Virus record (IMG/VR): IMGVR_UViG_2617270964_000015
DNA from: a virus
Taxonomy: Duplodnaviria; Heunggongvirae; Uroviricota; Caudoviricetes
Reading direction: 5' to 3' (one strand)
DNA: 15,512 nt
Of this stretch, positions 1 to 15,512 are shown one piece after another. The notes beneath the pieces are model-generated. The model did not search any database and was not told the origin of the DNA. It saw only the letters and a program-made list of their open reading frames with translations. The position numbers and the translations under genes are program-made. Numbering within the stretch: the stretch's first letter is position 1; each line of letters opens with the position of its first letter.

Positions 1-375
1 GACGAACAGTGGGGCTATGTCGGGGCTAAATCGCGCCAGCGCTGGCTGTTTTACGCGTATGACAGTCTCCGGAAGACGGTTGTTGCGCACGTATTCGGTG
101 AACGCACTATGGCGACGCTGGGGCGTCTTATGAGCCTGCTGTCACCCTTTGACGTGGTGATATGGATGACGGATGGCTGGCCGCTGTATGAATCCCGCCT
201 GAAGGGAAAGCTGCACGTAATCAGCAAGCGATATACGCAGCGAATTGAGCGGCATAACCTGAATCTGAGGCAGCACCTGGCACGGCTGGGACGGAAGTCG
301 CTGTCGTTCTCAAAATCGGTGGAGCTGCATGACAAAGTCATCGGGCATTATCTGAACATAAAACACTATCAATAA
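1..375 (+). CDS. insB: IS1 transposase InsB reading frame, 5'-truncated by the window edge
   Basis: Open frame from base 1 to TAA at 373-375; the ORF track reports the internal ATG at 109 (88 aa) but the frame is open from base 1 and matches InsB throughout. IS1 transposase is made as an InsA-InsB fusion by frameshifting, so an independent start is not expected. Confidence 0.85.
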
Positions 376-390
376 GTTGGAGTCATTACC
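1..390 (+). mobile_element. IS1: IS1 insertion sequence, 3' portion (element continues beyond the left window edge)
   Basis: Frame-1 translation from base 1 reads [44 protein letters not shown]...HYLNIKHYQ, which I recognise as the C-terminal part of IS1 InsB. Stop TAA at 373-375 is followed by the IS1 right terminal inverted repeat atcaataagttggagtcattacc at 368-390. Left end and any target-site duplication are outside the window. Confidence 0.9.
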
Positions 391-1257
391 GCCAGTTAGC
401 GCGCCATTTACACGTATTTCTATATTTTTCTCAGATTCAGAAAGCAGAGATATTATTCTTTTTGCACAGAGTTCGTCTATTTCATATAGATTCATTATTT
501 TCTTACCAAGAACAAACTCAATTTTTACAGGCAAGTCTTCAAAACTATTAATCATCTGATCGTCATTTTCATCATAAATCTCACTCTCGTTTTTTTTGAT
601 ATCAAAATCATCTGTTTCAAAATCTTCCTCGTACTCAAAATGATCAGCCATTTTTAACTCCTCTGGATAAATTAAATCAAAAATTTTTGTATTATAAATA
701 ACCGCATAAGCCAAATTATTTGAGATTAATAAAACATCACCAACTTCAATATCAACAAGACTTCTGTAACATGTTTTACTAAATCCAATTACAAAATGAA
801 TGGAGCAATATAACGATTTTTTGTCTAACGCTGGAGCGTTTCCGTATTGGCAGACTGTGACTTTATCTAACCAAAGATTCAATTCCCCTCTCCATATTCT
901 TATTAGTGGTTGAGCAGGGCTCAATACTCCATCAAATACTTTACCTACGCGCAAACGATTATATTTTAGTTCAGGATGCTTTAGATTTAACGGGGAACTG
1001 GATAAACTGAGCCATTCCCCTATTAACCTTTCCGTTTCTGGCATCAAAGCCATCCCAGCGAGCTCAGATGAAATTAAGGGAAATATTTCTCCAAGCAATA
1101 CCCATCCAGACCAGCTGCCACTCTCTTCTGCTATCGGTAGCCATTTAGCACTAAATTCGGGCATTAATAATGCAACATCTTCGCCATTTTCTTTCCAATT
1201 TTGAAAAGTGGTTTCAAACGTATGAGTGTTTCGATTTACTTTCCTCAGACCGAACAT
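391..1257 (-). pseudogene. Type III secretion SctQ/FliN-like protein with SpoA domains, 3' end cut by the IS1 insertion
   Basis: ATG at 1257-1255 with an AAGGA-like RBS upstream. The translation contains two SpoA-like segments, LVDIEVGDVLLISNN and DLPVKIEFVLGKKIMNLYEIDELCAKRIISLLSESEKNIEIRVNG, the second aligning closely to the FliN/SpaO C-terminal SpoA domain. The ORF-track frame (310..1257) continues into IS1 sequence, so the last ~27 codons are IS1-derived and the native C-terminus is lost. AT-rich by eye. Confidence 0.45.
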
Positions 1258-1388
1258 TAACTTTCATCCTTCTGATCGTTTTCGAATTTGCTTTCATTTT
1301 CTTGCTCCTCATAAGGCTGATGTCGTTGTCCTTGTCGTTCATCTTGCTCAGTCAATACCCAACGTTGTGCTGTAACTCATTATGAAAA

Positions 1389-2999
1389 CTATTTAATTCC
1401 CTCATCATTGATAAGATTGGACATCTCTTTCAACATGAGAGTCATTGAAGCTTTCGACCAATTTAGCGGAATGATAGGGCTTGGCGCTTCATGCAAAGTT
1501 CCCGACTTGTGGATATAGTTATAGCTTTCGGGAAGTGCCATTTCTGGTACGCTCCTGCCATTTGCACCAATCATATTCTCGCCTGTTATTTGGGCCAATG
1601 ATCTATTCATAAATTGCACTGAGTCATTCAAATACTCTTCTTTTCTTGATTCTTTATAAACAATTGCTGCTGATTTTGCATACCATGAGTCAAAAAACCA
1701 TTCTGCTTCTGTTGATGGAATGAAGCTCTTTTCTCTTTTCACATGTGAATTTTGATCGGTATCGGTTTTAATATCATTGAACCAAAAATTTGCCGACTGA
1801 TAATTATCCTTCTCGTATCTTTTTATACCATACGGACCTGCTAGTTTTTTAACTATTTTTAGAACCTGCTCTTTTCTTCTGGTGTTTATCTTTGCAAGAT
1901 TTGCAGGATAAATAACATTAAGTAAAGCCGCATCGGCTTCTCTGTAATGTTTATCTTTTTCCAGATAACCTGGGGATTCTCCCCCTAAATCAAGCTGTAA
2001 CGTTATTCTTTCATAACCTTTATCTATGAGGTGGTTCAACCTCGTTGTTGAAAGAGGTTCATCCAGTTCATTGGCTTTAGCTTCGCGTAGTAAATCAGAG
2101 ACAAAAACAGAGTCTTTCTTCGAGAGTAAGTTCGACAAACGTTCCAGTCCAGAGGTCACCAGTGCAACGGAAGATGTGTTTAATCGGGCATCTTCTTCCC
2201 ATGCTCCGGAATCTTCCATAACATAGAAATTGGCTTTATCCAGATAAGCAATCAGCAGCGCAACCGATTTTAATCGGTCACCTTTTTGCCAATCTTCAGC
2301 GTTAATTGTACCAGTGTCGATTGCTTGTATAAGGAGATCAAGATAAAGACCTAACGCATCATTTTGTTTATGGTTCCACAGCTGCGGCTTGCCTTCTTCC
2401 TGCACATCTGCCATCACGGGGAAGTTGCTGTCAAATCGGATATGCACAGCATTCATTTGCCCGGGAACTCCATCCAGTCGTTTGGGGTTGCTAATGACGT
2501 CCTGCATCCGCTTAATCTGGTCGGGCGTAGACATATAATCCCACAGGGTGAGCAGAACCTTTTTTGCGGCTACACTATTTCCCTGATCTGATACTAATGC
2601 CATATAGCCCCATAAACTATCCCTCAGCCAGACAGCATCATAGTGGGTTTCTGCCGCTGTTTTGTCATCTTCGAAAGTAGAAGCAAGAATAAATGTTCCC
2701 CAGGGTTTCTCCGTCAACGTTAACTTTCGTGTGTTTTCTGTTAATGTTAACAACCCTTGAATTTCGTCTTTGGTATAGTGGCTCTTTATTTCATTTTTTA
2801 ATTTGGCTGAGTGAATCAGAAGACGATAATTAGGGTACTTATCTGGATTTAACGATAAATAACTTTTATCTGTTGCTGCCCCCGTGGAATTAAGAATGTT
2901 AAATACAGATTCACTCGTCACTTCTGCCCCTGTCGCCTGGCATGTGCCGCACGAAAATATACCAGCGAGCAGAAGAGTTAATGCAGATTTCCCTTTCAT
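1389..2999 (-). CDS. Glycoside hydrolase family 15-like (glucoamylase-like) exported protein or lipoprotein
   Basis: Long ORF (track 1389..3041 begins at a GTG). The ATG at 2999-2997 gives MKGKSALTLLLAGIFSCGTCQA, a signal peptide with a possible lipobox cysteine. Internal DSGAWEED resembles the GH15 catalytic-region signature (S-G-x-W-E-E). AT-rich gene. Confidence 0.6.
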   Translation of the reverse strand: MKGKSALTLLLAGIFSCGTCQATGAEVTSESVFNILNSTGAATDKSYLSLNPDKYPNYRLLIHSAKLKNEIKSHYTKDEIQGLLTLTENTRKLTLTEKPWGTFILASTFEDDKTAAETHYDAVWLRDSLWGYMALVSDQGNSVAAKKVLLTLWDYMSTPDQIKRMQDVISNPKRLDGVPGQMNAVHIRFDSNFPVMADVQEEGKPQLWNHKQNDALGLYLDLLIQAIDTGTINAEDWQKGDRLKSVALLIAYLDKANFYVMEDSGAWEEDARLNTSSVALVTSGLERLSNLLSKKDSVFVSDLLREAKANELDEPLSTTRLNHLIDKGYERITLQLDLGGESPGYLEKDKHYREADAALLNVIYPANLAKINTRRKEQVLKIVKKLAGPYGIKRYEKDNYQSANFWFNDIKTDTDQNSHVKREKSFIPSTEAEWFFDSWYAKSAAIVYKESRKEEYLNDSVQFMNRSLAQITGENMIGANGRSVPEMALPESYNYIHKSGTLHEAPSPIIPLNWSKASMTLMLKEMSNLINDEGIK

Positions 3000-3306
3000 A
3001 AAATATTCCATCAATCGTTTGTTAAAAGCGTAGATAACCACTTATTTAACAACTTGAAAATAAGGTGTTTTACCTGGGTTGTTACAAAAGGATTGCATTG
3101 CGTAAACGCTTTTTATTTACAACAAAATGGGGAAATATTACGGCGATTGCGAAAAGTCTGAAGCGATTGAATTAAGATAATATAGAAAATCAGATACAGC
3201 AAAAATGGCAGATTGATGAGGCGAAGATAAATTGGAGCGGCGAAGGGAACAATACAACAAGCAACAAGACCAGTAATAAAGGCACATTCTCGAGTTCTAA
3301 AATAGA

Positions 3307-7123: not shown

Positions 7124-7147
7124 GGAAAAATCCCGGCCTCCGTCACT
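7124..7147 (-). terminator. Rho-independent terminator of the ProQ-like/PerC-like operon
   Basis: Minus-strand reading: stop TGA of the PerC-like gene, then gccggga-tttt-tcccggc (perfect 7-bp GC-rich stem, 4-nt loop; plus coordinates 7130-7147), then tttttt (plus-strand a-run 7124-7129). Confidence 0.65.
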
Positions 7148-7430
7148 GACTGCAATTTTTCGATCCAGGGTATTTCCTGAATGCCTTACCATTGGGCTGA
7201 TGTAATCCCATCCCGGCATGTGCCCGGCTGATGGTTTCGCGCATCTCCCCGAAATTATCCTGCCTTGCTGGTGGGCGTGCTGCCTTGTGGATACATTCCG
7301 CACGACGCTTTGCCGCCTGTTCCCGTGCCTTGTCATCATTCGCCAGCATGATGACCTCAGCCCACCGCGCCGCCGCTCTCCGGTACAGGCCACGCGCTTC
7401 CAGTGCTTCCGCTTTGCTGTCGTGAATCAT
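7143..7430 (-). CDS. PerC-family-like small transcriptional regulator (95 aa)
   Basis: N-terminus MIHDSKAEALEARGLYRRAAARWAEVIM matches my recollection of the PerC-family N-terminal signature (AE-LE--G-YRRAA-RW-EV). ATG at 7430-7428 overlaps the upstream stop (ATGA, 7427-7430). Confidence 0.5.
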   Translation of the reverse strand: MIHDSKAEALEARGLYRRAAARWAEVIMLANDDKAREQAAKRRAECIHKAARPPARQDNFGEMRETISRAHAGMGLHQPNGKAFRKYPGSKNCSQ

Positions 7431-7969
7431 GCGCCTGTTTTCTCCCTGGCTGCCCGGCGCTGGCGTTTGCGCTTCTCATTCAGCGCCACCAGCCGCGTTT
7501 CTGCCTCCTGCTGTTCCTGTGGTGTCACTTCCCCACATGGCTGGCCTTTCAGGTCGTAGCGTCCCCCACCAGCCATTAAGGCGCGGTAATAGCGCGGACA
7601 CTGCGCATAAGATGCCAGCGTCGCACGTAATGCCCCTGGCCCGAATGCCAGCCCCCTGACGGCGAGATCCTGCATCAGGTCGTCGAATATCCCCACCTTA
7701 AGCGGCTTCGGTGCTTCCCGGCTGAATAATTCAGGCCACAGTTCGATAAGGCGGTTAACGCGTCTGCGGTTTTTGCGCTGGCGTTTGGTCATATGCCGCC
7801 ACGGTGTCGCCCCTGTGGGCTTCTGCTGCGCTTTCTGGTTATCGGGCATCACTTTATGCGCCGATGTGGTTTTATCCTGCTCCTGTGCCGCCTGCGTCGT
7901 TTTCTGCGGCGTGCCGTAAATGCCTTTAGGTTTTCTGTTAATGGTCAGCTTTGTCATGCTTTGCCCCAT
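7427..7969 (-). CDS. ProQ/FinO-family RNA-binding protein
   Basis: PLKVGIFDDLMQDLAVRGL...YRALMAGGGRYDLKGQPCGEVTPQEQQEAETRL parallels the ProQ N-terminal FinO-like domain as I recall it (PLKIGIF-DL, RYL, R-DL-G-PCGE) and is followed by a basic tail. ATG at 7969 or at 7957-7955; the latter has GGGG 6 nt upstream. Confidence 0.7.
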   Translation of the reverse strand: MGQSMTKLTINRKPKGIYGTPQKTTQAAQEQDKTTSAHKVMPDNQKAQQKPTGATPWRHMTKRQRKNRRRVNRLIELWPELFSREAPKPLKVGIFDDLMQDLAVRGLAFGPGALRATLASYAQCPRYYRALMAGGGRYDLKGQPCGEVTPQEQQEAETRLVALNEKRKRQRRAAREKTGA

Positions 7970-8339: not shown

Positions 8340-10145
8340 TTATGTTCTGTCGTTAATCCCTGTTGCTGCTGGCAACCAGCCATCAGCATCATCATCTAAC
8401 AGAACATTTGTTATCACTCGCCCTTTATCCGGGCCTTTAGTGCATTTAGCCCGCTTATACTCCTTTCCGTATTCCGCCATAGCACCCGGCATATCAGTGC
8501 CAAAGCGTTTCAGTGATACTGGTTTTCCCAGACCATGCGCTGACATATAGGCTAAATAAGCATGATACAGATATCGCCTCGGGCTAAATGGCACTATTCC
8601 CGCATTACCCACCATCATTCCTTCACATTTAACCAACGACATCAGATATCCGCAAAAGTCCACCAGTGAATCACCCTCACGTTTTATCACCAGAGCCTCT
8701 TCTGATTTCTGCTGCTCATATAACAGACGTCTGGCTTCATCCTGGTCAGAAAAACGAGTAAGCAGGTGGCGAATCACTACCGCCAGTTCGCCTTCTATTT
8801 TTTCCACCAGCATGGGATCGCGTTCGTTCTCCGGTACGACCTCAGAGAAATTAAATATCACCCTACGACGCGAGATCCCCCCGCTTCGGTCACTGAATGA
8901 CATGGCGTTATTGTTTACTGCCAGCACTACCGCCGGAATACGAGTGGAGTATGGGGCTTTATGTTTCGGGTCGATCGCCACCTTGTCACCACCAGTAATT
9001 GCCTTAATTCCTGCACCATCACCAGCGTAGCGGGTCATATCCGGCATGATAATCAGCGAAAAGCCAACGACTAACGCGCGTTCCCTTGCGTCTTCCAGCG
9101 CCTTCATGCTTGCCGATACTGTATTGGCCTTACCCGCCAGCATGGTACAAATCTCCGCCATCACACTTTTACCGCTTCCGCCCGGCCCCGTTACCTCAAG
9201 GAATAACTGCCAGTCGTACCGGTTCGCCAGTACCATGAATAATGCCGCCAGTACGCGATCTGCTTTACGATCGTTATTTGCCACCGAACGACGCAGCCAC
9301 TTCCAGAAATTCGGCGCATGTGTTGCCAGTGTTTCCCCCTCTGCTGGTGGGCTGAACGGTAATTCACTGGCATTTAACAACCAGTCATTTTTGTTATGCT
9401 CCCGAAAATTTCCTGTCCGGGTATCAAATACCCCGTTACTGAATCCAATAAGATTCCTGTCTGCCCCGCCCATAACAGGCAGGCTCAATTTCATTGTGTC
9501 TACGGCAAATTTAATGGCGTTTTGCGAATAACTGATTCCAGCATCAATAAAAATCTTCGCCATAGACCGCTGGAGTTCCTTATCAGATACAGGCTCCCAG
9601 ACAATTCCGTTGTAATGGTGAACTACATCAGAATCGTCATTTATAGCCAGTGCCCTTCCATAATATTCAAGCAATACTTCCCCTCTCTGGCTGGCTCCCA
9701 TCTGATTTAGTGCTGGCCTGGGTAGGTCACTATTTTTTGTGACTAATTTCATCGCTGAAACTTCCCCGCGCTCTGCCTGTTCGCGGATCCGTTGCAGGTA
9801 ATCGCGCCAGTTCTCCGGCTCCCGGTCGGTGATGCCTTTGTATAATTTCGCCTCCTGTACGCCAGCCAGTGCCAGTTTTTCAGCGATAGCATTGATCTGG
9901 ATTGGTTCGATCTCCCCCGCGAGATAGACACGCGCAAAGCGGCGTTCATCGTCGACAATGCGGATATTCGCCAGGTCTGCCAGTTGCTTTGGCCCCAAGT
10001 AAACAGGTGGTACGTTATCGCCGTGCTTCCGTCCTTCGCTTTCAATCCAGTGTTGAGCATGGGAGTAAGCATCCGTCCCGGCAAAAATGATTACCTCAGT
10101 GAATTTATCCTTCGGCTGATATTTCAAATTCGGTGCGTTTTTCAC
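8340..10145 (-). CDS. P4-family phage/plasmid primase-like replication protein with P-loop NTPase module
   Basis: 601-aa ORF with Walker A GPGGSGKS. Overall resemblance to satellite/PICI primase-replication proteins is from memory only. Start is GTG at 10145-10143 with GGAGG just upstream, overlapping the upstream gene's stop (GTGA). Stop TAA at 8342-8340. Confidence 0.8.
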   Translation of the reverse strand: MKNAPNLKYQPKDKFTEVIIFAGTDAYSHAQHWIESEGRKHGDNVPPVYLGPKQLADLANIRIVDDERRFARVYLAGEIEPIQINAIAEKLALAGVQEAKLYKGITDREPENWRDYLQRIREQAERGEVSAMKLVTKNSDLPRPALNQMGASQRGEVLLEYYGRALAINDDSDVVHHYNGIVWEPVSDKELQRSMAKIFIDAGISYSQNAIKFAVDTMKLSLPVMGGADRNLIGFSNGVFDTRTGNFREHNKNDWLLNASELPFSPPAEGETLATHAPNFWKWLRRSVANNDRKADRVLAALFMVLANRYDWQLFLEVTGPGGSGKSVMAEICTMLAGKANTVSASMKALEDARERALVVGFSLIIMPDMTRYAGDGAGIKAITGGDKVAIDPKHKAPYSTRIPAVVLAVNNNAMSFSDRSGGISRRRVIFNFSEVVPENERDPMLVEKIEGELAVVIRHLLTRFSDQDEARRLLYEQQKSEEALVIKREGDSLVDFCGYLMSLVKCEGMMVGNAGIVPFSPRRYLYHAYLAYMSAHGLGKPVSLKRFGTDMPGAMAEYGKEYKRAKCTKGPDKGRVITNVLLDDDADGWLPAATGINDRT

Positions 10146-10638: not shown

Positions 10639-11000
10639 GATTCCCCCCCCCCCTGAATAACCTGATAACCGCAACTGGTCAGCAATTCGATAAATTCCGG
10701 CAATGTGCCGAAACAGCAATCATCACGCAGACGTTCGCGGGATACCTCAACGTCGTTTTCATAATGGCTCACCATGCGTCCGGTAAAATGCAAATCATCA
10801 TCGTGATGGCACGTTGACGGTTTAATCAGTCGCGCACGCTCTGCCAGTTCCAGCAATGCTTCAACACTTCCGGCAATTGCACCATCCGGCAGGTGGTAAT
10901 TACGCACTATGCGCCCGTTCTCCACATGGACCAGTAGCTGCCCGGTAAATTTCTCGTCAAACTGAATGCGGTTAAGGTCGGTAAGTGACAGGTTAATCAT
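10614..11000 (-). CDS. Hypothetical protein with two internal repeats (128 aa as read), ending just after a G11 tract
   Basis: ATG at 11000-10998 overlaps the upstream stop (ATGATTAA). Repeats DEKFTGQLLVHVENGRIV and DLHFTGRMVSHYENDVEV. C-terminus ...VIQGGGESWIISKQQ is encoded across the homopolymer. Confidence 0.5.
   Translation of the reverse strand: MINLSLTDLNRIQFDEKFTGQLLVHVENGRIVRNYHLPDGAIAGSVEALLELAERARLIKPSTCHHDDDLHFTGRMVSHYENDVEVSRERLRDDCCFGTLPEFIELLTSCGYQVIQGGGESWIISKQQ
10643..10653. repeat. Homopolymeric tract C11 (G11 on the coding minus strand) inside a coding region
   Basis: ttcccccccccccctg; eleven consecutive C at 10643-10653. Confidence 0.9.
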
Positions 11001-11358
11001 GGCGCACCTCCTGGCGAATACGGGCGGCGAATACCATCACGCAGCCATCAGGAGATTGCTGGCGTGCTTCCTGTTCGCTGGTGGCCTCGATGTGAATCAC
11101 GCGCGGTTGTGCCGTACTCAGGGCGATAAAACGCCAGATAGAATTGTTTTCGCATTTCTGAATAAACAGCGTGTTTTCTTCGCGCCCTTTCCATGTTGCC
11201 GAGATATAGCCCATGTCATTGAGCATCTCGCAGGCATCCACCAGCGTATCAGCGGCTACGTGTACAGTGTTTTTACCGTCAGCTATGCAATCACGGTGCA
11301 CCGCCAGGAAGGTGTATATAAATTTAGGGTGAGTTTGGGTATGCTGTGTTCCAGCCAT
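10993..11358 (-). CDS. Hypothetical protein (121 aa), first gene of the primase operon
   Basis: ATG at 11358-11356 with GAGG upstream on the coding strand. This is the 3' third of the 382-aa ORF-track entry 10993..12141, whose upstream part crosses the divergent regulatory region and a plus-strand gene. Stop overlaps the next start. Confidence 0.5.
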   Translation of the reverse strand: MAGTQHTQTHPKFIYTFLAVHRDCIADGKNTVHVAADTLVDACEMLNDMGYISATWKGREENTLFIQKCENNSIWRFIALSTAQPRVIHIEATSEQEARQQSPDGCVMVFAARIRQEVRHD

Positions 11359-11557
11359 AATCGTTACCTCGTTTAACGGTTTGGTTAGAAGCCCCGTTAC
11401 TGCTCCAACAGTGCGGGGCTTCGTTGTTTCAATTGCTGAATTGCATGTATCAGCCCTTGTGGTATTCAGATTACATTTTGGTGAATACCATTTCAAGTCT
11501 TTTTTGGTATTCACTTTTGTATTACACTGCATCCCGTTATTAATCGGAGGTGCAAAC
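11359..11557. promoter_or_regulatory. Divergent intergenic control region with hairpin and GGTATTCA operator-like repeats
   Basis: Stem-loop gaagccccg-(17 nt)-cggggcttc at about 11390-11425. Three copies of GGTATTCA / TGAATACC at about 11460-11516, one inverted. GGAGG at 11546-11550 precedes the ATG at 11558. Confidence 0.45.
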
Positions 11558-11863
11558 ATGTCCACGAGTTCTGTTAACAATAAGTCACAGCAACTGAATG
11601 CCAGATTTCCACATGAAGTAGTGAGTGGCATTGAGGCATCCCTACAGCCAGGGGAAACTAAAGCGAATTTTATAGTTACGGCTGTACGCGGTGAGATCGC
11701 CCGCCGCCAGGCAGAAGGAAGCGGAGAAAACCCCCTAGTTTCTTCGCTCGATGCGCTGGCGCAGGTGGAAAAAATCGGTGTCAAAGCTGCCGAGGAGATC
11801 GGGCAACTCGTCACCGTCGCGCGTGAAGAACTCCAGCGGCGCAAGGCCAAAGAACAGGAGTAG
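11558..11863 (+). CDS. Ribbon-helix-helix (Arc/MetJ-type) DNA-binding regulator, 101 aa
   Basis: ATG at 11558 seven nt after GGAGG; the ORF-track start at 11381 is unlikely because it crosses the control region. QQLNARFPHEVVSGIEA then ANFIVTAVRGEIARRQ fits the beta-strand-helix-helix pattern of Arc-like repressors. It is the only confident plus-strand gene inside the element. Confidence 0.55.
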   Translation: MSTSSVNNKSQQLNARFPHEVVSGIEASLQPGETKANFIVTAVRGEIARRQAEGSGENPLVSSLDALAQVEKIGVKAAEEIGQLVTVAREELQRRKAKEQE

Positions 11864-12087
11864 TTGATCAGCACCGGGCAACCAGAAAAAATCGTATCAG
11901 TTGCGCCACCAGCAAATTTTTTTGCTTTCCGGACGACGTTGCCAACGGCATTTTGCAGCAAAATATTCCGCATTTCTGGCGTACTGTAGTAACGGTGATC
12001 AGCGCCTTCACTCTGTGCGACCACAACGCTATAATCTGCCTCGTAGACAGTAAGCAATATAGCGCAGTAGAATATTCGTTCACAAAG

Positions 12088-12119
12088 GCGCTCCGGCAAC
12101 GGGGCGCTTTCTCTTTTTG
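12088..12119 (+). terminator. Intrinsic terminator-like hairpin, plus strand
   Basis: gcgctcc-ggcaac-ggggcgc (7-bp stem with one G-U pair, 12088-12107) followed by tttctctttttg (12108-12119). It lies about 225 nt past the stop of the plus-strand regulator gene and about 27 nt past the stop of the convergent minus-strand gene. Confidence 0.5.
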
Positions 12120-12133
12120 TAACGGTCAGAGCG

Positions 12134-12982
12134 TTACACATGGCTGTTTTCCTCCATGCGACGGGCTAACCAACGCTGCGAAAGACGAATTAATTCAGCT
12201 TTCCGCTGGTGGTAGTCCTGGCCTAACTCAATCAGCGTGATATTGCTCTGCTCAAGGTAAGAAAGGTGCTCAAGCTGCAACGTGCTCATGTGGTCGCGTG
12301 GTTCGCCTGTAATGCCGTTCGCCTGCGCCCACTGTTTTGCAGTCATGCCACCCAGCACGATACGCGCCAGCATATTGGCTTCCGTGGTGTAGTGGTGCTG
12401 GAGTGTGTTTTTACCCAGCTCAGCCCGGTATGCTTCCAGCGCGGCGCACATCGGCTTAAAGTAGCTGGCAACGGTGATACGGGCTTTCAGTTCCCGGCGT
12501 AACGCTGCGGAACGCACTGGCGCTACCTTGTGTAGCTCCTCCTCGCATTTGATGAAGTACTGACGAACGGCACGGCCCTGTTCGGTGCGTTCGACCATCG
12601 CCAGTTCTTTTGCCATGTTCGTGGAGATCAAATAGTCTTCACTGCGACGATCACCGCCGCGCTTTGTTGTCCAATCAGAATCAAACTGTTCAATATTTAC
12701 ACTTTGGTTCCCCCGTTTCGGGGAATCAAAGTACAAATTTTCTACAACTTTAAAATCCACGCCATTTTTAAATCCGTACTCATCAATACGTCCTTTAATC
12801 CAGGTAGTGAAATCACGGCCTCCCCCGAGCGCCTTATGCAACGCTCTGGCGCTAACAATATTGGTTTCACGCCCGCCAATAACGCCGGAAATAACCGGGA
12901 TAATTTCGCCGAAATTTTGCAGATTCTGGTTTTCAGGCCGAACTAAGCCCTGCCCCTGTACGGGCGTTTTTCGCTGTTTCAT
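12134..12982 (-). CDS. AntA/AntB-family phage antirepressor-like protein
   Basis: ATG at 12982-12980 with AGGAG 5 nt upstream. N-terminal region ARALHKALGGGRDFTTWIKGRIDEYGFKNGVDFKV ... MAKELAMVERTEQGRAVRQYFIKCEE matches the AntA-domain pattern I recall (DF-TWIK-RI--YGF, AKELAMVER--G---RQYFI-CE). Confidence 0.65.
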   Translation of the reverse strand: MKQRKTPVQGQGLVRPENQNLQNFGEIIPVISGVIGGRETNIVSARALHKALGGGRDFTTWIKGRIDEYGFKNGVDFKVVENLYFDSPKRGNQSVNIEQFDSDWTTKRGGDRRSEDYLISTNMAKELAMVERTEQGRAVRQYFIKCEEELHKVAPVRSAALRRELKARITVASYFKPMCAALEAYRAELGKNTLQHHYTTEANMLARIVLGGMTAKQWAQANGITGEPRDHMSTLQLEHLSYLEQSNITLIELGQDYHQRKAELIRLSQRWLARRMEENSHV

Positions 12983-13059
12983 AAAAACTCCTGCTAACGA
13001 ATTAAGTTACTTTTATTTGCTGGTGGATAGCTGGGGCTTCTGGCCCCGTAGCCATTTAA

Positions 13060-13260
13060 TCAGGTAGCTGTTCCGCGTGATTCCGCAATACGCTGATTAA
13101 TCCACTCGTCAATTTCACTCTCAACGAAAGCAATAGCTCGCGAGCCAATTTTTACAGGTTTAGGAAAACTCCCTTGGGCAATGAGTTTATAGATCCATGC
13201 CCTTCCATAGCCTGTACGGCGCATGGTTTCTGACATACGAATTAAATTTTGCTTATCCAT
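13060..13260 (-). CDS. alpA: AlpA-family transcriptional regulator / excisionase-like HTH protein
   Basis: MDKQNLIRMSETMRRTGYGRAWIYKLIAQGSFPKPVKIGSRAIAFVESEIDEWINQR matches the AlpA family (small HTH protein ending -EIDEWI-QR). ATG at 13260-13258 has AGGAG 6 nt upstream; the ORF-track start at 13305 is less likely. It lies downstream of int on the same strand, as in P4-like and PICI elements. Confidence 0.75.
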   Translation of the reverse strand: MDKQNLIRMSETMRRTGYGRAWIYKLIAQGSFPKPVKIGSRAIAFVESEIDEWINQRIAESRGTAT

Positions 13261-13317
13261 ACACTTCTCCTGATGCATATAAAAGTCTGTTTCTGGAATA
13301 TACACAAGAGAAGGATG

Positions 13318-13380
13318 TATTTTTTAAATTAAATATTAAAATTTAAATTAAATACAATTTAATTCAATTTAAATAATTTT
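13318..13380. repeat. AT-only low-complexity repeat (AATTTAAAT-type units) spanning the 3' end of the cargo gene and the alpA upstream region
   Basis: ttttttaaattaaatattaaaatttaaattaaatacaatttaattcaatttaaataatttt, with multiple overlapping direct and palindromic AAATT/AATTT units. Confidence 0.6.
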
Positions 13381-14267
13381 CTGTACTCCTCTGGGATAAC
13401 CAAGCGGAAATCATCTTTTGTTTCCACTCCTGTTTTGCCAATTCCTTCTGAACAAAGAATATTTCTAATTGTACCTACTTTAGGCGTATTAACAGCATCA
13501 ATAGAATAAAGCAAGGAGTGTATTTTATTGATAATTAATGTCGTATGGCTCCACGGATAAGAAATACGAGTAGCTTTCGCTACATCAACAATAACATTTC
13601 GATAGATATTTCTAGGCTTACCCACCATTTTGTTAATTGTTTCGCAACTACGTGAATTCACCCCATCCATTTTACTTTTAATAAAATCGGGATACTTTTC
13701 CATAGATGATTTGACTTGGTTTAATCTCCAATTTATTGTCACCCCACCATTTTTAAGCAAAAATAATTCACTTTTAGTTATAACTAAATCGCTTGTTTTA
13801 ATATTTATACCGCCATTAATTAAAATTACTCGTGGGTTATAATCCTCCAAGTTATAGTGCGTAAAAGATGGAAGCCTCACTGGATATAGCCTATCAACAA
13901 CAAATTCTTTTACGTTATCAAAATCAGCATCCATCTTAAAAAGATTGGATATTCGGACAGAAAAAAGACCACAGGCCTTAATGACTTTTCTATGTTTTAA
14001 CTTTCCATTAGATTCGCAACTAATAACTTCACTTATTTTTGCATAGTTAGAGCGATGTCTGAATTTTTTACTTCTTGTATTAGAAAATATTTCTTTATTA
14101 AATTTACCACGAACAGAGACCCTTCCTTCTTCAATAAGCTCTGACAAATCTATATTTATTGCTACATCAACCATTCCGATTGATATATAGTGAAATAAAT
14201 CATAAACATCTCTATTTATCTCAAAAGCTGCTTTATTCAGAGTGTAAAACAATCTTTCAGGAAGCAT
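13359..14267 (-). CDS. Hypothetical AT-rich cargo protein (302 aa) between int and alpA
   Basis: ATG at 14267-14265 with AGGTGA upstream, only about 30 bp after the integrase stop. Uninterrupted 302-codon ORF in clearly AT-rich DNA (by eye about one-third G+C, against about half in flanking int and alpA). Asn/Ile/Lys-rich; no catalytic motif I can name. Confidence 0.6.
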   Translation of the reverse strand: MLPERLFYTLNKAAFEINRDVYDLFHYISIGMVDVAINIDLSELIEEGRVSVRGKFNKEIFSNTRSKKFRHRSNYAKISEVISCESNGKLKHRKVIKACGLFSVRISNLFKMDADFDNVKEFVVDRLYPVRLPSFTHYNLEDYNPRVILINGGINIKTSDLVITKSELFLLKNGGVTINWRLNQVKSSMEKYPDFIKSKMDGVNSRSCETINKMVGKPRNIYRNVIVDVAKATRISYPWSHTTLIINKIHSLLYSIDAVNTPKVGTIRNILCSEGIGKTGVETKDDFRLVIPEEYRKLFKLN

Positions 14268-14297: not shown

Positions 14298-15512
14298 TCA
14301 ATCTAATTTTTCAGATTTTATGTAAACAACGTTTCCGCCATGCTCAAGCGAATCCATATAGTCGGCGTACCACTGGAGCATTTCCCGGCGACCATCCAGA
14401 TATTGCGCATGGTTGTATGTGCCACGAATTGAGTTTTTATCGGCGTGCGCAAGCTGTGTCTCTATCCACGCGGTGTTATAGCCCTGCTCATGCAAAATGG
14501 TGCTCATGGTGTGCCGGAATCCATGACCAGTAACGCGCCCGGCGTAGCCAATACGACGAATGAGCACATTCATTGCCATTTCACTCATTGGCTTACTGTG
14601 GTGAATACGACCGGGGAAAATAAACTGATACTGGCCTGTCATGTTTTTTAACTGCTCCAGTATTTTTATCGCCTGTTCTGGTAATGGCACACAATGCGGA
14701 CGGCGCATCTTCATTCGTTCTTTAGGCACTTCCCACAAACGATTATCAAAATCGATCTCCCGCCATTCTGCCTGCCGTAATTCCCCGGGTCTGACACCTG
14801 TCAGAATTAATAGCCGCATTGCCAGTTTGACGATCTGGCTTCCGGTGTACGTATTAAAAACGCGGAAAAATTCCGGCAGTTCGTCGGCCTTCAGATAGGC
14901 GTAATGCTCTTTTTTATGTGGAGCAAATGCGCTCACCAGGTCAGGGGCTGGATTATATTCGGCGCGTCCGGTGATGATTGCGTACCGGAACACCTCGCCA
15001 CATCGCTGGCGAACCTTACGCAATTTTTCAGTCGCACCACGGTCATTAAGACGGGAAAGAACCGCCAGCAATTCCATCGGCTTAATTTCTGCGATCGGCC
15101 TACCGCCAATGTACGGAAAAACATCTTTTTCAAACGTCTCGATCATTTCCTCGGCGTATGACGATGACCACCTGTCGATCCGCTTTTCGTACCATTCGCG
15201 AGCGATACCCTCAAAAGTATTGCCAAATTTGCTCGCCTGTTCTCGCTTTTGGGCTTTTCTGGCCTCACTTGGATTTATACCACCAGCAAGAAGCCTTTTA
15301 GCCTCATCCCTTGCCGCCCTGGCATCAGACAGAGACACATCAGGGTACACACCCAACGACAACATTTTGGGCTTTCCTGCAAACCTGTAGCGCAGTCGCC
15401 ACCCTTTCGAACCGTTCGGCTCAATGAGCAACGAAAGCCCGTTACCGTCATTGAGTGTATAAGCCTTTTCTTTCGGCTTCGCGCGCCTGATGGCAAGGTC
15501 TGAAAGCAGCAT
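14298..15512 (-). CDS. int: Tyrosine recombinase, P4-type phage integrase
   Basis: ATG occupies the last three bases of the window (15512-15510). N-terminus MLLSDLAIRRAKPKEKAYTLNDGNGLSLLIEPNGSKGWRLRYRF is the P4-integrase arm-binding signature. C-terminal catalytic region GHGFRHTMSTIL ... LAHADKNSIRGTYNHAQY carries the R/HxxR/Y residues. Upstream promoter and att site are outside the window. Confidence 0.85.
   Translation of the reverse strand: MLLSDLAIRRAKPKEKAYTLNDGNGLSLLIEPNGSKGWRLRYRFAGKPKMLSLGVYPDVSLSDARAARDEAKRLLAGGINPSEARKAQKREQASKFGNTFEGIAREWYEKRIDRWSSSYAEEMIETFEKDVFPYIGGRPIAEIKPMELLAVLSRLNDRGATEKLRKVRQRCGEVFRYAIITGRAEYNPAPDLVSAFAPHKKEHYAYLKADELPEFFRVFNTYTGSQIVKLAMRLLILTGVRPGELRQAEWREIDFDNRLWEVPKERMKMRRPHCVPLPEQAIKILEQLKNMTGQYQFIFPGRIHHSKPMSEMAMNVLIRRIGYAGRVTGHGFRHTMSTILHEQGYNTAWIETQLAHADKNSIRGTYNHAQYLDGRREMLQWYADYMDSLEHGGNVVYIKSEKLD

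What the first reader, a model, noticed from the sequence alone, without database searches (positions are those of the whole stretch)
12134..13305. alpA followed directly by an AntA-like antirepressor
AlpA-type regulators activate excision and gene expression in P4-like and PICI elements, and an antirepressor-family protein immediately downstream suggests the element can derepress itself or a co-resident prophage. The pair has strong Shine-Dalgarno sites and a small hairpin (about 13040-13055) between them.
Basis: partly seen in the sequence, partly recalled or inferred. Interest (0 to 1): 0.4.

Follow-up and report, generated by a model that had tools for sequence, protein, structure and literature searches.

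The report
Satellite regulator pair: alpA plus AntA-domain gene
The two genes are real and are the usual front end of a phage-satellite island found widely in enterobacteria, but calling the second gene an "antirepressor" rests only on a domain name; it looks more like a DNA-binding regulator.

Summary
Observation confirmed. On the minus strand, alpA (13060-13260; Pfam Phage_AlpA, 4e-19) is followed after 77 nt by a 282-aa gene (12134-12982) whose residues 43-133 match Pfam AntA (2e-22). Both genes have AGGAG Shine-Dalgarno sites, and a GC-rich hairpin lies between them at 13027-13055.

The pair sits in a PICI-type satellite next to tRNA-Gly: int, cargo gene, alpA, antA, Icd-like gene, DUF4222, primase, ProQ, PerC. 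The order int, alpA, antA, primase recurs in about 50 of 62 loci from different species. The published "integration zone / Bro zone" layout of Gram-negative PICIs already describes it, and the validated PICI EcCIMP1 has it too.

The antirepressor reading is only partly supported:
- There is no KilA-C domain.
- The conserved C-terminal half is an unnamed helical module shared with Rha, KilA-N and Bro-N proteins.
- The only significant structural relative of the predicted fold is the DNA-binding dimer DdrC.
- In the one AntA-domain protein that has been dissected (Listeria AriS), that domain regulates the phage's own genes.
- The functional PICI EcCICFT073 keeps only a remnant of this gene.

Most likely this is an AlpA-co-expressed, accessory DNA-binding regulator. 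It is ordinary as a finding. Two side leads came up: a DdrC-like fold, and a P4 eta/kil-like long ORF translationally coupled to antA.

The parts
13060..13260 (-). alpA: 66-aa AlpA/Vis-family helix-turn-helix regulator. The open frame extends to a GTG at 13305. The Shine-Dalgarno AGGAG is at 13267-13271.
   Evidence: Pfam Phage_AlpA 4.3e-19. Same CDS annotated in EC02. 36% identical to P4 ORF88/Vis. Sequence read.
13027..13055 (-). GC-rich stem-loop in the 77-nt alpA-antA spacer: 11 bp with a 2-nt bulge, and no U-tract after it.
   Evidence: RNA fold. Only partly conserved, with no covariation, in 7 related junctions.
12134..12982 (-). antA-like gene, 282 aa. It has a basic leader (aa 1-22), an AntA winged-helix-type domain (aa 43-133, nt 12584-12856) with a variable insert at aa 76-115, a long helix, and a conserved helical C-domain (aa 134-282, nt 12137-12583). 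The Shine-Dalgarno AGGAG is at 12988-12992.
   Evidence: Pfam AntA 1.9e-22 and no other Pfam hit. PHROG Ant families. Alignment A1. AF2 model. DdrC as the only significant fold match. C-domain combined with Rha, AntA, KilA-N or Bro-N N-domains.
12085..12110 (.). Strong stem-loop just downstream of the antA stop. It has a T-run on the + strand, making it a likely terminator of the convergent YlcI/YnfO transcript. On the - strand the tail is only TTTGTG. It lies inside the long ORF that starts at the antA stop codon.
   Evidence: Terminator scan. A 34-nt block including the stem is identical in EcCICFT073 although the flanks differ.
10993..12141 (-). Stop-free 382-codon frame whose ATG overlaps the antA stop (ATGTGTAA). 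It runs through the hairpin and antisense to YlcI, and ends in an Icd-like/Kil-like domain. In layout it resembles the nested eta/kil genes of P4.
   Evidence: ORF list. NCBIfam phage_ICD_like 3.8e-21 at aa 335-377. The same long open frame reaches back over the AntA stop in 24 other loci. Its N-terminal part is not conserved as protein. Kil-like N-terminus matches P4.
11558..11863 (+). YlcI/YnfO-family gene, 101 aa, convergent with alpA-antA and lying inside the long minus-strand frame.
   Evidence: NCBIfam YlcI_YnfO_N 2.9e-16. PHROG 6522 5.6e-46. The 101-aa length is conserved in homologues.
13319..13380 (.). Nearly pure A/T block with overlapping TTTAAATTAAAT-type palindromes upstream of alpA. 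It is a candidate promoter or operator region. It overlaps the 3' end of the 302-aa ORF (13359-14267).
   Evidence: Repeat search. Sequence read. The simple scan found no sigma-70 consensus promoter on the minus strand here.
14298..15512 (-). Tyrosine integrase of the island (context). In near-identical loci it lies next to tRNA-Gly.
8340..10145 (-). P4-family primase/helicase (context: the replication zone downstream of the same operon).
   Evidence: Pfam D5_N, DUF5906 and Pox_D5, plus TIGR01613.

Best explanation
alpA and antA are the first two genes of the inducible leftward operon of a Gram-negative PICI-type phage satellite integrated at tRNA-Gly.

Proposed sequence of events:
1. A helper phage in its lytic cycle raises alpA expression (known from relatives).
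2. AlpA activates its own promoter.
3. Transcription continues into antA. This is inferred from the 77-nt spacer with no terminator, and from AlpA-dependent expression of the homologous 'ORF3' position in EcCICFT073.
4. Transcription and translation then continue through a translationally coupled long ORF into the Icd-like and primase genes (inferred).

The AntA-like protein itself is most likely a dimeric DNA-binding regulator of the 'Bro network'. It has an exchangeable N-terminal winged-helix-type AntA domain with a variable wing, which would give target specificity on satellite or helper DNA. It also has a strongly conserved helical C-domain, which would provide dimerisation and/or contact with a conserved partner.

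It is an accessory modulator of satellite or helper gene expression. It is not the switch of the island, and there is no evidence that it is a repressor-binding antirepressor.
For: Genes and domains.

Island context at tRNA-Gly, with int, primase, PerC and ProQ.

Conserved order Int, AlpA, AntA, (DUF4222/Icd/YlcI), Pri in about 50 of 62 loci from different species.

The published four-zone model of Gram-negative PICIs places Bro-network genes directly after int/alpA and lists AntA explicitly among them: PMC10111431.

The validated PICI EcCIMP1 has alpA, orfX, antA (59% identical), DUF4222, ash/Icd, primase; PMC11773190.

AlpA is the helper-dependent, self-activating master activator, and it drives expression of the ORF after it in EcCICFT073: PMC6092414. 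The first ~47 codons of that ORF are homologous to antA.

DNA-binding reading of the protein:
- In the AF2 model the C-half has pLDDT above 90.
- The protein is basic, with twelve invariant Arg/Lys.
- In 80 diverse representatives the C-domain is fused to Rha (29), AntA (26), KilA-N (17) or Bro-N (2).
- Relatives carry Rha-AntA-BroN or Rha-GIY-YIG-BroN tandems behind the same alpA and leader.
- In Listeria AriS the AntA domain regulates the phage's own genes (PMC9043618).

Accessory status: EcCICFT073 works with only a remnant of the gene. AntA stays 55-69% identical across loci while the Int, AlpA and primase alleles change.
Against: - No DNA binding, dimerisation or target site has been shown for this protein or any close relative.
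- The fold comparison rests on a predicted model (mean pLDDT 73, pTM 0.48). TM-scores to DdrC are low (0.3-0.4), and no sequence-level relation was found.
- DdrC's own wHTH is negatively charged, and its DNA binding uses grooves formed by both domains, so 'wHTH means DNA reader' is not automatic.
- Co-transcription with alpA is inferred, not measured. The alpA allele here differs from that of EcCICFT073.
- The strong conservation of the C-domain fits binding to a conserved protein equally well.
- The P1/P7 Ant proteins, from which the family name comes, do bind a repressor.
Confidence: 0.55

Rival explanations
1. True antirepressor. AntA binds and inactivates the immunity repressor of a co-resident helper prophage, as P4 epsilon does to the P2 C repressor, or a repressor of the island itself. 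An activated or newly arrived satellite could then switch its helper on.
For: - Pfam AntA and PHROG Ant matches.
- The family name goes back to the P1/P7 Ant proteins (as cited in PMC9043618).
- P4 has a helper-derepression gene (epsilon) in the same operon, between the eta/kil region and the primase.
- The variable insert at aa 76-115 could be a specificity determinant.
- A possible island-encoded regulator (YlcI/YnfO) lies convergent to antA.
Against: - No KilA-C/ANT domain.
- The conserved half of the protein is a module shared with Rha, KilA-N and Bro-N DNA-binding proteins.
- The protein is 55-69% identical across genera whose prophage repressors differ widely.
- alpA-operon expression follows helper induction rather than preceding it (PMC6092414).
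- EcCICFT073 keeps YlcI but has only an antA remnant and is still fully inducible.
- The AntA domain of AriS is not an antirepressor (PMC9043618).
- There is no similarity to P4 epsilon.
Confidence: 0.17
2. DdrC-like DNA-architecture protein. A dimer with two DNA-binding faces compacts, bridges or circularises satellite DNA, or protects its ends from nucleases, during replication and packaging. It would not regulate transcription.
For: Full-length DdrC is the only significant structural match in two independent searches. DdrC compacts and circularises DNA and protects it from nucleases (PMC9303277). The protein is basic, with invariant Arg/Lys along the long helix. The gene sits directly upstream of the replication zone.
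Against: - The similarity is at fold level only and rests on a medium-confidence model.
- The family's N-domains (AntA, Rha, KilA-N, Bro-N) are typical of sequence-specific regulators.
- EcCICFT073 replicates and is packaged without the gene.
- The one experimental precedent for the AntA domain points to transcription effects (PMC9043618).
Confidence: 0.12
3. Interference or defence cargo. The protein acts against the helper or competing phages, for example by repressing their late genes as PLE CapR does, or as a defence candidate. The benefit would go to the satellite or the host.
For: The C-terminal part matches the PADLOC candidate family PDC-S22 (6.3e-10). [quoted passage not shown]
Against: PDC-S22 is an untested candidate, and its defence-island association may simply reflect residence in satellites. 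The gene lies in the regulatory backbone rather than in the variable cargo spot between int and alpA. This explanation overlaps largely with the best one, since it needs the same DNA-binding mechanism.
Confidence: 0.1

Closest known systems
'Bro zone' of Gram-negative PICIs (four-zone model: Integration / Bro / Replication / Late; PMC10111431)
   Same: int and alpA are followed, in the same orientation, by one or more Bro-network genes and then by the primase. AntA is one of the ten Pfam families listed for this network. Modules are swapped between relatives: AntA here, and Rha-AntA-BroN or Rha-GIY-YIG-BroN behind the same alpA and leader.
   Different: No C4/isrK-type immunity RNA was found here, whereas that paper reports such RNAs in several PICI Bro zones. 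Here there is a single Bro-network gene. The function of these genes in PICIs is untested in the literature I could read.
EcCIMP1 'antirepressor' (E. coli MP1 PICI, helper phage Kapi1; PMC11773190)
   Same: 59% identical over 258 residues, with the same two-domain protein. The operon is the same: int, alpA, antA, DUF4222, ash/Icd, primase, PerC. EcCIMP1 is experimentally helper-induced and transduced, and its alpA is required.
   Different: EcCIMP1 has a 143-aa gene between alpA and antA, integrates at tRNA-Thr, and has a different primase type (TOPRIM/DUF927). Its antirepressor gene was annotated but not tested.
EcCICFT073 ORF3 (prototype Gram-negative PICI; PMC6092414)
   Same: Same position after alpA. 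The first ~47 codons are about 88% identical at the DNA level. The post-gene hairpin is identical. The downstream YlcI, Icd-like, DUF4222, primase and PerC backbone is the same. ORF3 expression was shown to depend on AlpA.
   Different: ORF3 is a remnant. It has the AntA leader and beta-hairpin, then a Bro-N-like fragment (E 0.027), and is fused in frame to the long Icd-ending ORF. It has no complete DNA-binding domain and no C-domain. The alpA allele is different.
Phage P4 left operon (vis, eta/kil with cI RNA, epsilon, alpha)
   Same: The AlpA homologue (36% identical) comes first. It is followed by a long ORF, translationally coupled to the gene before it, that contains a nested Kil/Icd-like gene (Kil N-terminus similar). 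The P4-family primase comes further downstream.
   Different: P4 has no AntA gene. Its helper derepressor, epsilon, is unrelated and lies after kil. P4 has C4 and isrK RNAs and the sid/delta/psu genes, none of which were found in the window.
Listeria phage phi10403S AriS (AntA/AntB + ANT/KilAC; PMC9043618)
   Same: N-terminal AntA domain. The architecture is modular: an exchangeable N-domain (AntA, Bro-N or Rha) on a conserved C-domain. It was annotated as an antirepressor but acts otherwise.
   Different: The C-domain here is not KilAC. AriS's SOS-inhibiting activity resides in KilAC and so cannot be transferred to this protein. AriS is encoded by a Gram-positive prophage, not a satellite.
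Deinococcus radiodurans DdrC (PDB 7qvb, 7udi, 8u0g)
   Same: Predicted fold plan over the full length: beta-hairpin, winged helix, linker helix, C-terminal helical bundle.
   Different: No detectable sequence similarity. DdrC is a chromosomal DNA-damage-response protein. The domain-swapped dimer and DNA binding are unverified for AntA.

Membership tests
Gram-negative PICI (phage-inducible chromosomal island) | Tyrosine integrase at one end, next to a specific att site (often a tRNA gene), reading into the island | tested here: met
   [not shown]
Gram-negative PICI (phage-inducible chromosomal island) | alpA downstream of int in the same orientation | tested here: met
   Pfam Phage_AlpA 4.3e-19. 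A 302-aa cargo ORF separates int and alpA.
Gram-negative PICI (phage-inducible chromosomal island) | Bro-network gene(s) between alpA and the replication genes | tested here: met
   AntA-domain gene at 12134-12982. The same layout occurs in about 50 of 62 loci and is described in PMC10111431.
Gram-negative PICI (phage-inducible chromosomal island) | Primase/replication module; island of roughly 10-20 kb lacking a full set of phage structural and lysis genes | tested here: met
   P4-family primase at 8340-10145. The remaining ORFs between about 3.3 and 8 kb give PerC, ProQ and no capsid, terminase, tail or lysis families in Pfam. Not all of them were checked against PHROGs.
Gram-negative PICI (phage-inducible chromosomal island) | Induction, excision, replication and high-frequency transfer dependent on a helper phage | not testable with these tools
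   Shown only for the relatives EcCICFT073 (PMC6092414) and EcCIMP1 (PMC11773190).
Phage antirepressors of the Ant type (P1/P7 Ant, P22 Ant and AntA+KilAC proteins) | AntA/AntB N-terminal domain | tested here: met
   PF08346, E 1.9e-22, 80 bits against a cut-off of 27, full model length 1-68.
Phage antirepressors of the Ant type (P1/P7 Ant, P22 Ant and AntA+KilAC proteins) | ANT/KilA-C C-terminal domain | tested here: not met
   No Pfam family other than AntA at E<=10, for the whole protein or for residues 134-282 alone.
Phage antirepressors of the Ant type (P1/P7 Ant, P22 Ant and AntA+KilAC proteins) | Binds and inactivates an immunity repressor; expression alone induces the prophage | not testable with these tools
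I found no paper testing this for any member of this subfamily.
Phage antirepressors of the Ant type (P1/P7 Ant, P22 Ant and AntA+KilAC proteins) | Expression held in check by an immunity circuit (C4-type antisense RNA as in P1 immI; this feature is stated from my own knowledge) | tested here: not met
   No C4 or isrK match in the window at E<=10, whereas P4 gives both. Other kinds of control were not tested.
P4-like satellites | vis/alpA, then a coupled long ORF with a nested kil-like gene, then an alpha-type primase | tested here: met
   In the window the coupling is to antA, not directly to alpA.
P4-like satellites | sid, delta, psu capsid-size and transactivation genes; epsilon; cI/C4 RNA | tested here: not met
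   None of these families was hit in Pfam, NCBIfam or PHROG scans of the window's ORFs. There is no C4 RNA.
DdrC-like fold | beta-hairpin + winged helix N-domain, linker helix, C-terminal helical bundle in one chain | tested here: inconclusive
   [not shown]
DdrC-like fold | Domain-swapped asymmetric homodimer with two DNA-binding faces | not testable with these tools
   Only monomer prediction was available.

The most novel reading that the evidence does not exclude
The proteobacterial 'AntA/AntB antirepressor family' proteins of this type may be mis-named. They would be DdrC-like, dimeric DNA-binding proteins built from an exchangeable reader domain (AntA, Rha, KilA-N or Bro-N) and a conserved helical C-domain that no Pfam model in the copy used here matches. 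This would give DdrC, so far reported to have no structural homologues, a large family of phage and satellite relatives.

In this island, the protein's gene would also be the upstream partner of a P4-eta-like 'translated spacer'. That ORF's translation would carry AlpA-driven transcription through a terminator and a convergent YlcI gene into the replication genes. This would be an RNA-independent version of the P4 immunity switch.
Probability: 0.25. Interest if true: 0.55.

Novelty: new member of a known kind. Interest (0 to 1): 0.25.

Why it matters
As stated, the finding is routine. It is the standard regulatory front end of a common family of enterobacterial phage satellites. The arrangement is already annotated in RefSeq and described in the PICI literature.

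What it does offer is a caution and two leads:
- Caution: 'antirepressor' in such annotations is a domain label and does not establish function.
- First lead: the Bro-zone proteins placed directly after the master activator AlpA are conserved across genera, yet untested in any PICI. If they tune helper or satellite transcription, they are part of how these islands parasitise phages.
- Second lead: the predicted DdrC-like fold and the long coupled ORF give concrete, cheap experiments.

Tried and rejected
- KilA-C/ANT domain: absent at E<=10.
- Sequence search of the PDB with the protein and with its family profile: only chance hits, such as apolipoprotein E and a retroviral envelope.
- Rfam on the whole window, and on 10900-13400 with lax filters: no C4, isrK or other credible family. 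The HOLDH hit at 13383-13661 scores 28 bits against a gathering score of 319, in AT-rich DNA, and I treat it as chance.
- Megablast of the gene pair against 50,697 phage records: no match. By protein, the full two-domain architecture appears in only three phage records, for example Edwardsiella phage EPP-1, where it is not in an immunity region.
- Hairpin between alpA and antA as a conserved RNA element: RNAalifold gives a positive covariation term (+0.43) and no compensatory pairs. It is rejected as a demonstrably functional structure, although EcCICFT073 has a different GC hairpin at roughly the same place.
- A generic search for a conserved terminator after antA across all loci gave nothing consistent beyond the E. 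coli-type islands.
- tblastn of the Icd-like part against phages did not reach P4. A direct pairwise comparison did show a short Kil-like match.
- YlcI as a ribbon-helix-helix repressor: one source names a homologue 'CopG family'. The AF2 monomer is all-helical, and neither Foldseek nor the PDB profile search gave support. Left open.
- PADLOC: only the untested candidate PDC-S22 for AntA, and nothing for the 302-aa cargo ORF.
- Literature searches for any functional test of AntA-type genes in PICIs, or any link between DdrC and Bro-network domains, found none.
Full report
**What is in the sequence**

All relevant genes lie on the minus strand.

The first ORF is an AlpA-family helix-turn-helix protein: Pfam Phage_AlpA E=4.3e-19, HTH_17 2.5e-6. 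Its probable start is the ATG at 13260, which is preceded by AGGAG at 13267-13271. RefSeq annotates that 201-nt CDS in the 99.7%-identical locus of E. coli EC02.

The second ORF matches Pfam AntA over residues 43-133 (E=1.9e-22, whole model) and several PHROG 'anti-repressor Ant' families. It has AGGAG at 12988-12992, five nt before its ATG.

The two genes are 77 nt apart. In that spacer the RNA folds into an 11-bp GC-rich stem with a 2-nt bulge at 13027-13055.

The hairpin is the weakest part of it:
- The spacer folds no better than shuffled sequence (z = -1.18).
- No U-run follows the stem.
- In seven related junctions the stem is only partly kept, and no compensatory change is in register.

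**Where it sits**

Near-identical DNA occurs in E. coli chromosomes next to tRNA-Gly, between actS and the ETT2 type III secretion remnant. The left 3.3 kb of the window is that ETT2 remnant: a YscQ/HrcQ-like gene and a glycoside hydrolase 15 gene.

The island reads, on the minus strand:
1. integrase, 14298-15512
2. an AT-rich 302-aa ORF with no family match
3. alpA
4. antA
5. a long ORF ending in an Icd-like domain, with a YlcI/YnfO gene on the opposite strand inside it
6. a 128-aa ORF
7. DUF4222
8. a P4-family primase, 8340-10145
9. ProQ/FinO
10. PerC
11. several unknown genes

This is the gene content of a Gram-negative phage-inducible chromosomal island (PICI).

A scan of one genome per species found 62 loci with a relative of the AntA protein. 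In about 50 of them the order is integrase, AlpA, AntA, (DUF4222/Icd/YlcI), primase. These loci span Escherichia, Serratia, Xenorhabdus, Pantoea, Pectobacterium, Klebsiella, Providencia, Aeromonas and others. The exceptions are mainly Edwardsiella loci without an integrase or primase nearby.

About 465 of 5,426 complete E. coli genomes carry the gene pair or part of it.

**What is already known**

Mageeney and co-workers describe four ordered zones in Gram-negative PICIs (PMC10111431):
[quoted passage not shown] - a late zone

AntA is one of the ten Pfam families they list for that network. The pair in this window is exactly that junction.

The PICI EcCIMP1 is experimentally helper-induced, needs its alpA, and is transduced by phage Kapi1 (PMC11773190). 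It has alpA, a 143-aa gene, an antA/AntB gene 59% identical to ours, DUF4222, ash, Icd-like and primase. That paper colours the gene 'antirepressor' but does not test it.

In the prototype EcCICFT073, AlpA is the helper-dependent, self-activating master activator. It also drives expression of the ORF that follows it, 'ORF3' (PMC6092414).

I located EcCICFT073 in the CFT073 chromosome. Its backbone is the same as the window's: int, alpA, YlcI on the opposite strand, Icd-like, DUF4222, primase, PerC.

ORF3 turned out to be a remnant of antA. Its first ~47 codons are about 88% identical in DNA to the start of our gene. A Bro-N-like fragment follows, and then the frame runs straight into the long Icd-ending ORF. 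A PICI that is induced, replicates and transfers therefore does so without an intact copy of this gene.

**What the protein looks like**

The AntA match covers only the N-terminal third.

An alignment of 38 full-length homologues shows a variable insert at residues 76-115. The C-terminal half is much better conserved: 51 of 149 positions are invariant, against 16 of 111 in the N-terminal half. The protein is basic (pI 9.35), with twelve invariant Arg/Lys.

The AlphaFold2 model has mean pLDDT 73, above 90 through most of residues 180-270, and is disordered in the leader and the insert. Its order of elements is a beta-hairpin, two helices, a two-stranded wing, a helix, one helix of 55 residues, and a helical bundle.

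DdrC has the same plan: a beta-hairpin plus winged helix, a linker helix and a four-helix bundle. It is a domain-swapped DNA-binding dimer, and its authors state that no structural homologue was known (PMC9303277).

There is no sequence-level signal, and TM-scores are low because the domains are oriented differently. I treat this as a lead, not a result.

**The C-terminal half is a separate module**

A search of 1.84 billion representative proteins with residues 134-282 finds 285 clusters. Almost all are proteins of 210-280 aa with the match in their C-terminal half. Of 80 diverse members, 29 have an N-terminal Rha domain, 26 AntA, 17 KilA-N and 2 Bro-N.

In other E. coli islands the same alpA, spacer and first ~20 codons are followed by Rha-AntA-BroN or Rha-GIY-YIG-BroN tandems with overlapping stop and start codons.

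This is the domain-shuffling behaviour of a family of DNA-binding regulators. An exchangeable reader domain sits on a constant domain that presumably dimerises or touches a conserved partner.

Across loci, AntA stays 55-69% identical to ours while integrase, AlpA and primase switch between unrelated alleles. It is therefore not a specificity partner of those proteins.

The one experimentally dissected AntA-domain protein I could find is AriS of Listeria phage phi10403S. It was annotated as an antirepressor. In fact its AntA domain modulates transcription of the phage's own genes, and its KilAC domain damps the SOS response. The authors note that the function of both domains is otherwise unclear (PMC9043618).

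**How it most likely works**

Shown in relatives: a helper phage in its lytic cycle raises alpA expression, AlpA activates its own promoter, and the next ORF is expressed in an AlpA-dependent way (PMC6092414, PMC11773190).

Inferred for this window: alpA and antA are co-transcribed, because they are separated by 77 nt with no terminator and each has its own strong ribosome-binding site.

I then infer that AntA is a dimeric DNA-binding protein that adjusts satellite or helper gene expression. It would be an accessory function, because EcCICFT073 dispenses with it. I give this 0.55.

The name derives from P1/P7 Ant. P4 does carry a helper derepressor (epsilon) in the same operon. The variable wing could also confer specificity. 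Against it stand the following points:
- The KilA-C domain is missing.
- The conserved module is shared with other DNA-binding proteins.
- The protein is conserved across genera whose prophage repressors differ.
- The timing is wrong, since the gene lies downstream of a helper-dependent activator.
- AriS provides a contrary precedent.

A DdrC-like architectural role gets 0.12, and an interference or defence role 0.10. The C-terminus hits the untested PADLOC candidate PDC-S22, and the PLE protein CapR is a precedent for the interference role.

**A side observation that bears on the operon**

The antA stop overlaps an ATG (ATGTGTAA) that opens a 382-codon stop-free frame, 10993-12141. This frame runs through a strong hairpin at 12085-12110. 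That hairpin is a good terminator for the plus strand, where it follows YlcI, but has only a weak tail on the minus strand. The frame then runs antisense through YlcI and ends in the Icd-like domain.

In 24 other loci the open frame that ends in the Icd-like domain (624-1317 nt) reaches back over the AntA stop. Where DUF4222 follows antA, the frame abuts DUF4222 instead. The upstream part is not conserved as protein, which suggests that being translated matters more than the product.

One caveat applies. Over the 306 nt opposite YlcI, the frame shares wobble positions with YlcI. By general experience this is the antisense frame that most often stays open by chance (my own reasoning, not tested).

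This is the layout of P4 eta/kil. Eta is coupled to the AlpA homologue, and its translation lets transcripts pass the immunity terminator (as summarised in PMC10111431).

The start of the Icd-like protein resembles the start of P4 Kil. Unlike P4, which gives C4 and isrK hits, neither the window nor EcCICFT073 has a recognisable immunity RNA.

**Verdict**

The arrangement is a known, widespread one. 'Antirepressor' is a label inherited from a domain name, and the evidence gathered here leans towards a DNA-binding regulator.

Interest is low (0.25). Novelty: a new member of a known kind.

Noticed in passing
window 10993-12141 (-): A 382-codon stop-free frame starts on the antA stop codon (ATGTGTAA). 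It passes through a terminator-like hairpin and the antisense of YlcI, and ends in an Icd/Kil-like domain. The same long open frame recurs in 24 other loci, although its upstream part is not conserved as protein. It looks like a counterpart of P4 eta/kil (translation-dependent read-through) but without a C4-type RNA.
   Followed up: partly
[not shown]
   Followed up: partly
window 12137-12583 (-), protein residues 134-282: The conserved C-terminal half has no Pfam model in the copy used. It forms a family of 285 representative clusters. In these it is fused to Rha (29 of 80), AntA (26), KilA-N (17) or Bro-N (2) N-terminal domains. It also matches the untested PADLOC defence candidate PDC-S22 (6e-10).
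   Followed up: yes
window 11558-11863 (+) and 12085-12110: A YlcI/YnfO-family gene is convergent with alpA-antA, and a strong plus-strand terminator ends just before the antA stop. The 101-aa form is conserved in homologues, whereas RefSeq calls a 59-aa version in EC02. One source names a homologue 'CopG family'. It could be a regulator opposing the alpA operon, but structure searches gave no support.
   Followed up: partly
window 12007-12085, both strands: Back-to-back promoter-like sites. On the plus strand there are TTCACT-17-TATAAT (12007-12035) and TAGACA-18-TAGAAT (12044-12073), both 10 of 12 matches and facing the terminator at 12085-12110. A transcript from there would be a short RNA antisense to the start of the long ORF. 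On the minus strand there is TTGTGA-18-TATATT (12085-12056). These are consensus matches only.
   Followed up: no
window 13359-14267 (-): A 302-aa ORF at about 32% GC lies between int and alpA, in an island of about 50% GC. It has no match in Pfam, NCBIfam, PHROGs or PADLOC. Relatives carry different genes at this spot, for example an 798-nt gene annotated as a 'bZIP transcription factor'. This suggests a variable cargo position. The weak Rfam HOLDH hit here is far below threshold.
   Followed up: partly
window 13319-13380: A block of almost pure A/T with overlapping TTTAAATTAAAT-type palindromes lies directly upstream of alpA. It may be the AlpA-responsive promoter or operator, or a site for nucleoid proteins.
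   Followed up: no
L065 9767-11053 (E. coli CFT073, EcCICFT073): 'ORF3' of the prototype PICI is a chimeric remnant. It consists of the antA leader and beta-hairpin, then a Bro-N-like fragment, fused in frame to the long Icd-ending ORF. The 34-nt hairpin block after antA is identical to the one in the window.
   Followed up: yes
L068 1363-3197 and L069 1287-3138 (E. coli GPEC1366, VTB96815v): Behind the same alpA, spacer and first ~20 codons, these islands carry three tandem Bro-network genes with 8-nt stop/start overlaps: Rha, AntA/AntB, BRO-N, or Rha, GIY-YIG nuclease, BRO-N.
   Followed up: partly
L058 7475-7909; L072 18223-18654: Most relatives, including EcCIMP1, have an extra gene of about 144 aa between alpA and antA. 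Its ATG overlaps the alpA stop (TAATG). It has no Pfam match.
   Followed up: partly
window 1-3300: The left end of the window is not part of the island. It holds remnants of the ETT2 type III secretion locus: a YscQ/HrcQ-like ORF at 310-1257 and a glycoside hydrolase 15/YgeQ-like ORF at 1389-3041. The island's far boundary was not mapped.
   Followed up: partly
window 7143-7969 (-): PerC-family (7143-7430) and ProQ/FinO-family (7427-7969) genes overlap by 4 nt downstream of the primase. PerC-like genes are typical PICI accessory genes, and one in EcCIMP1 silences LEE expression.
   Followed up: no
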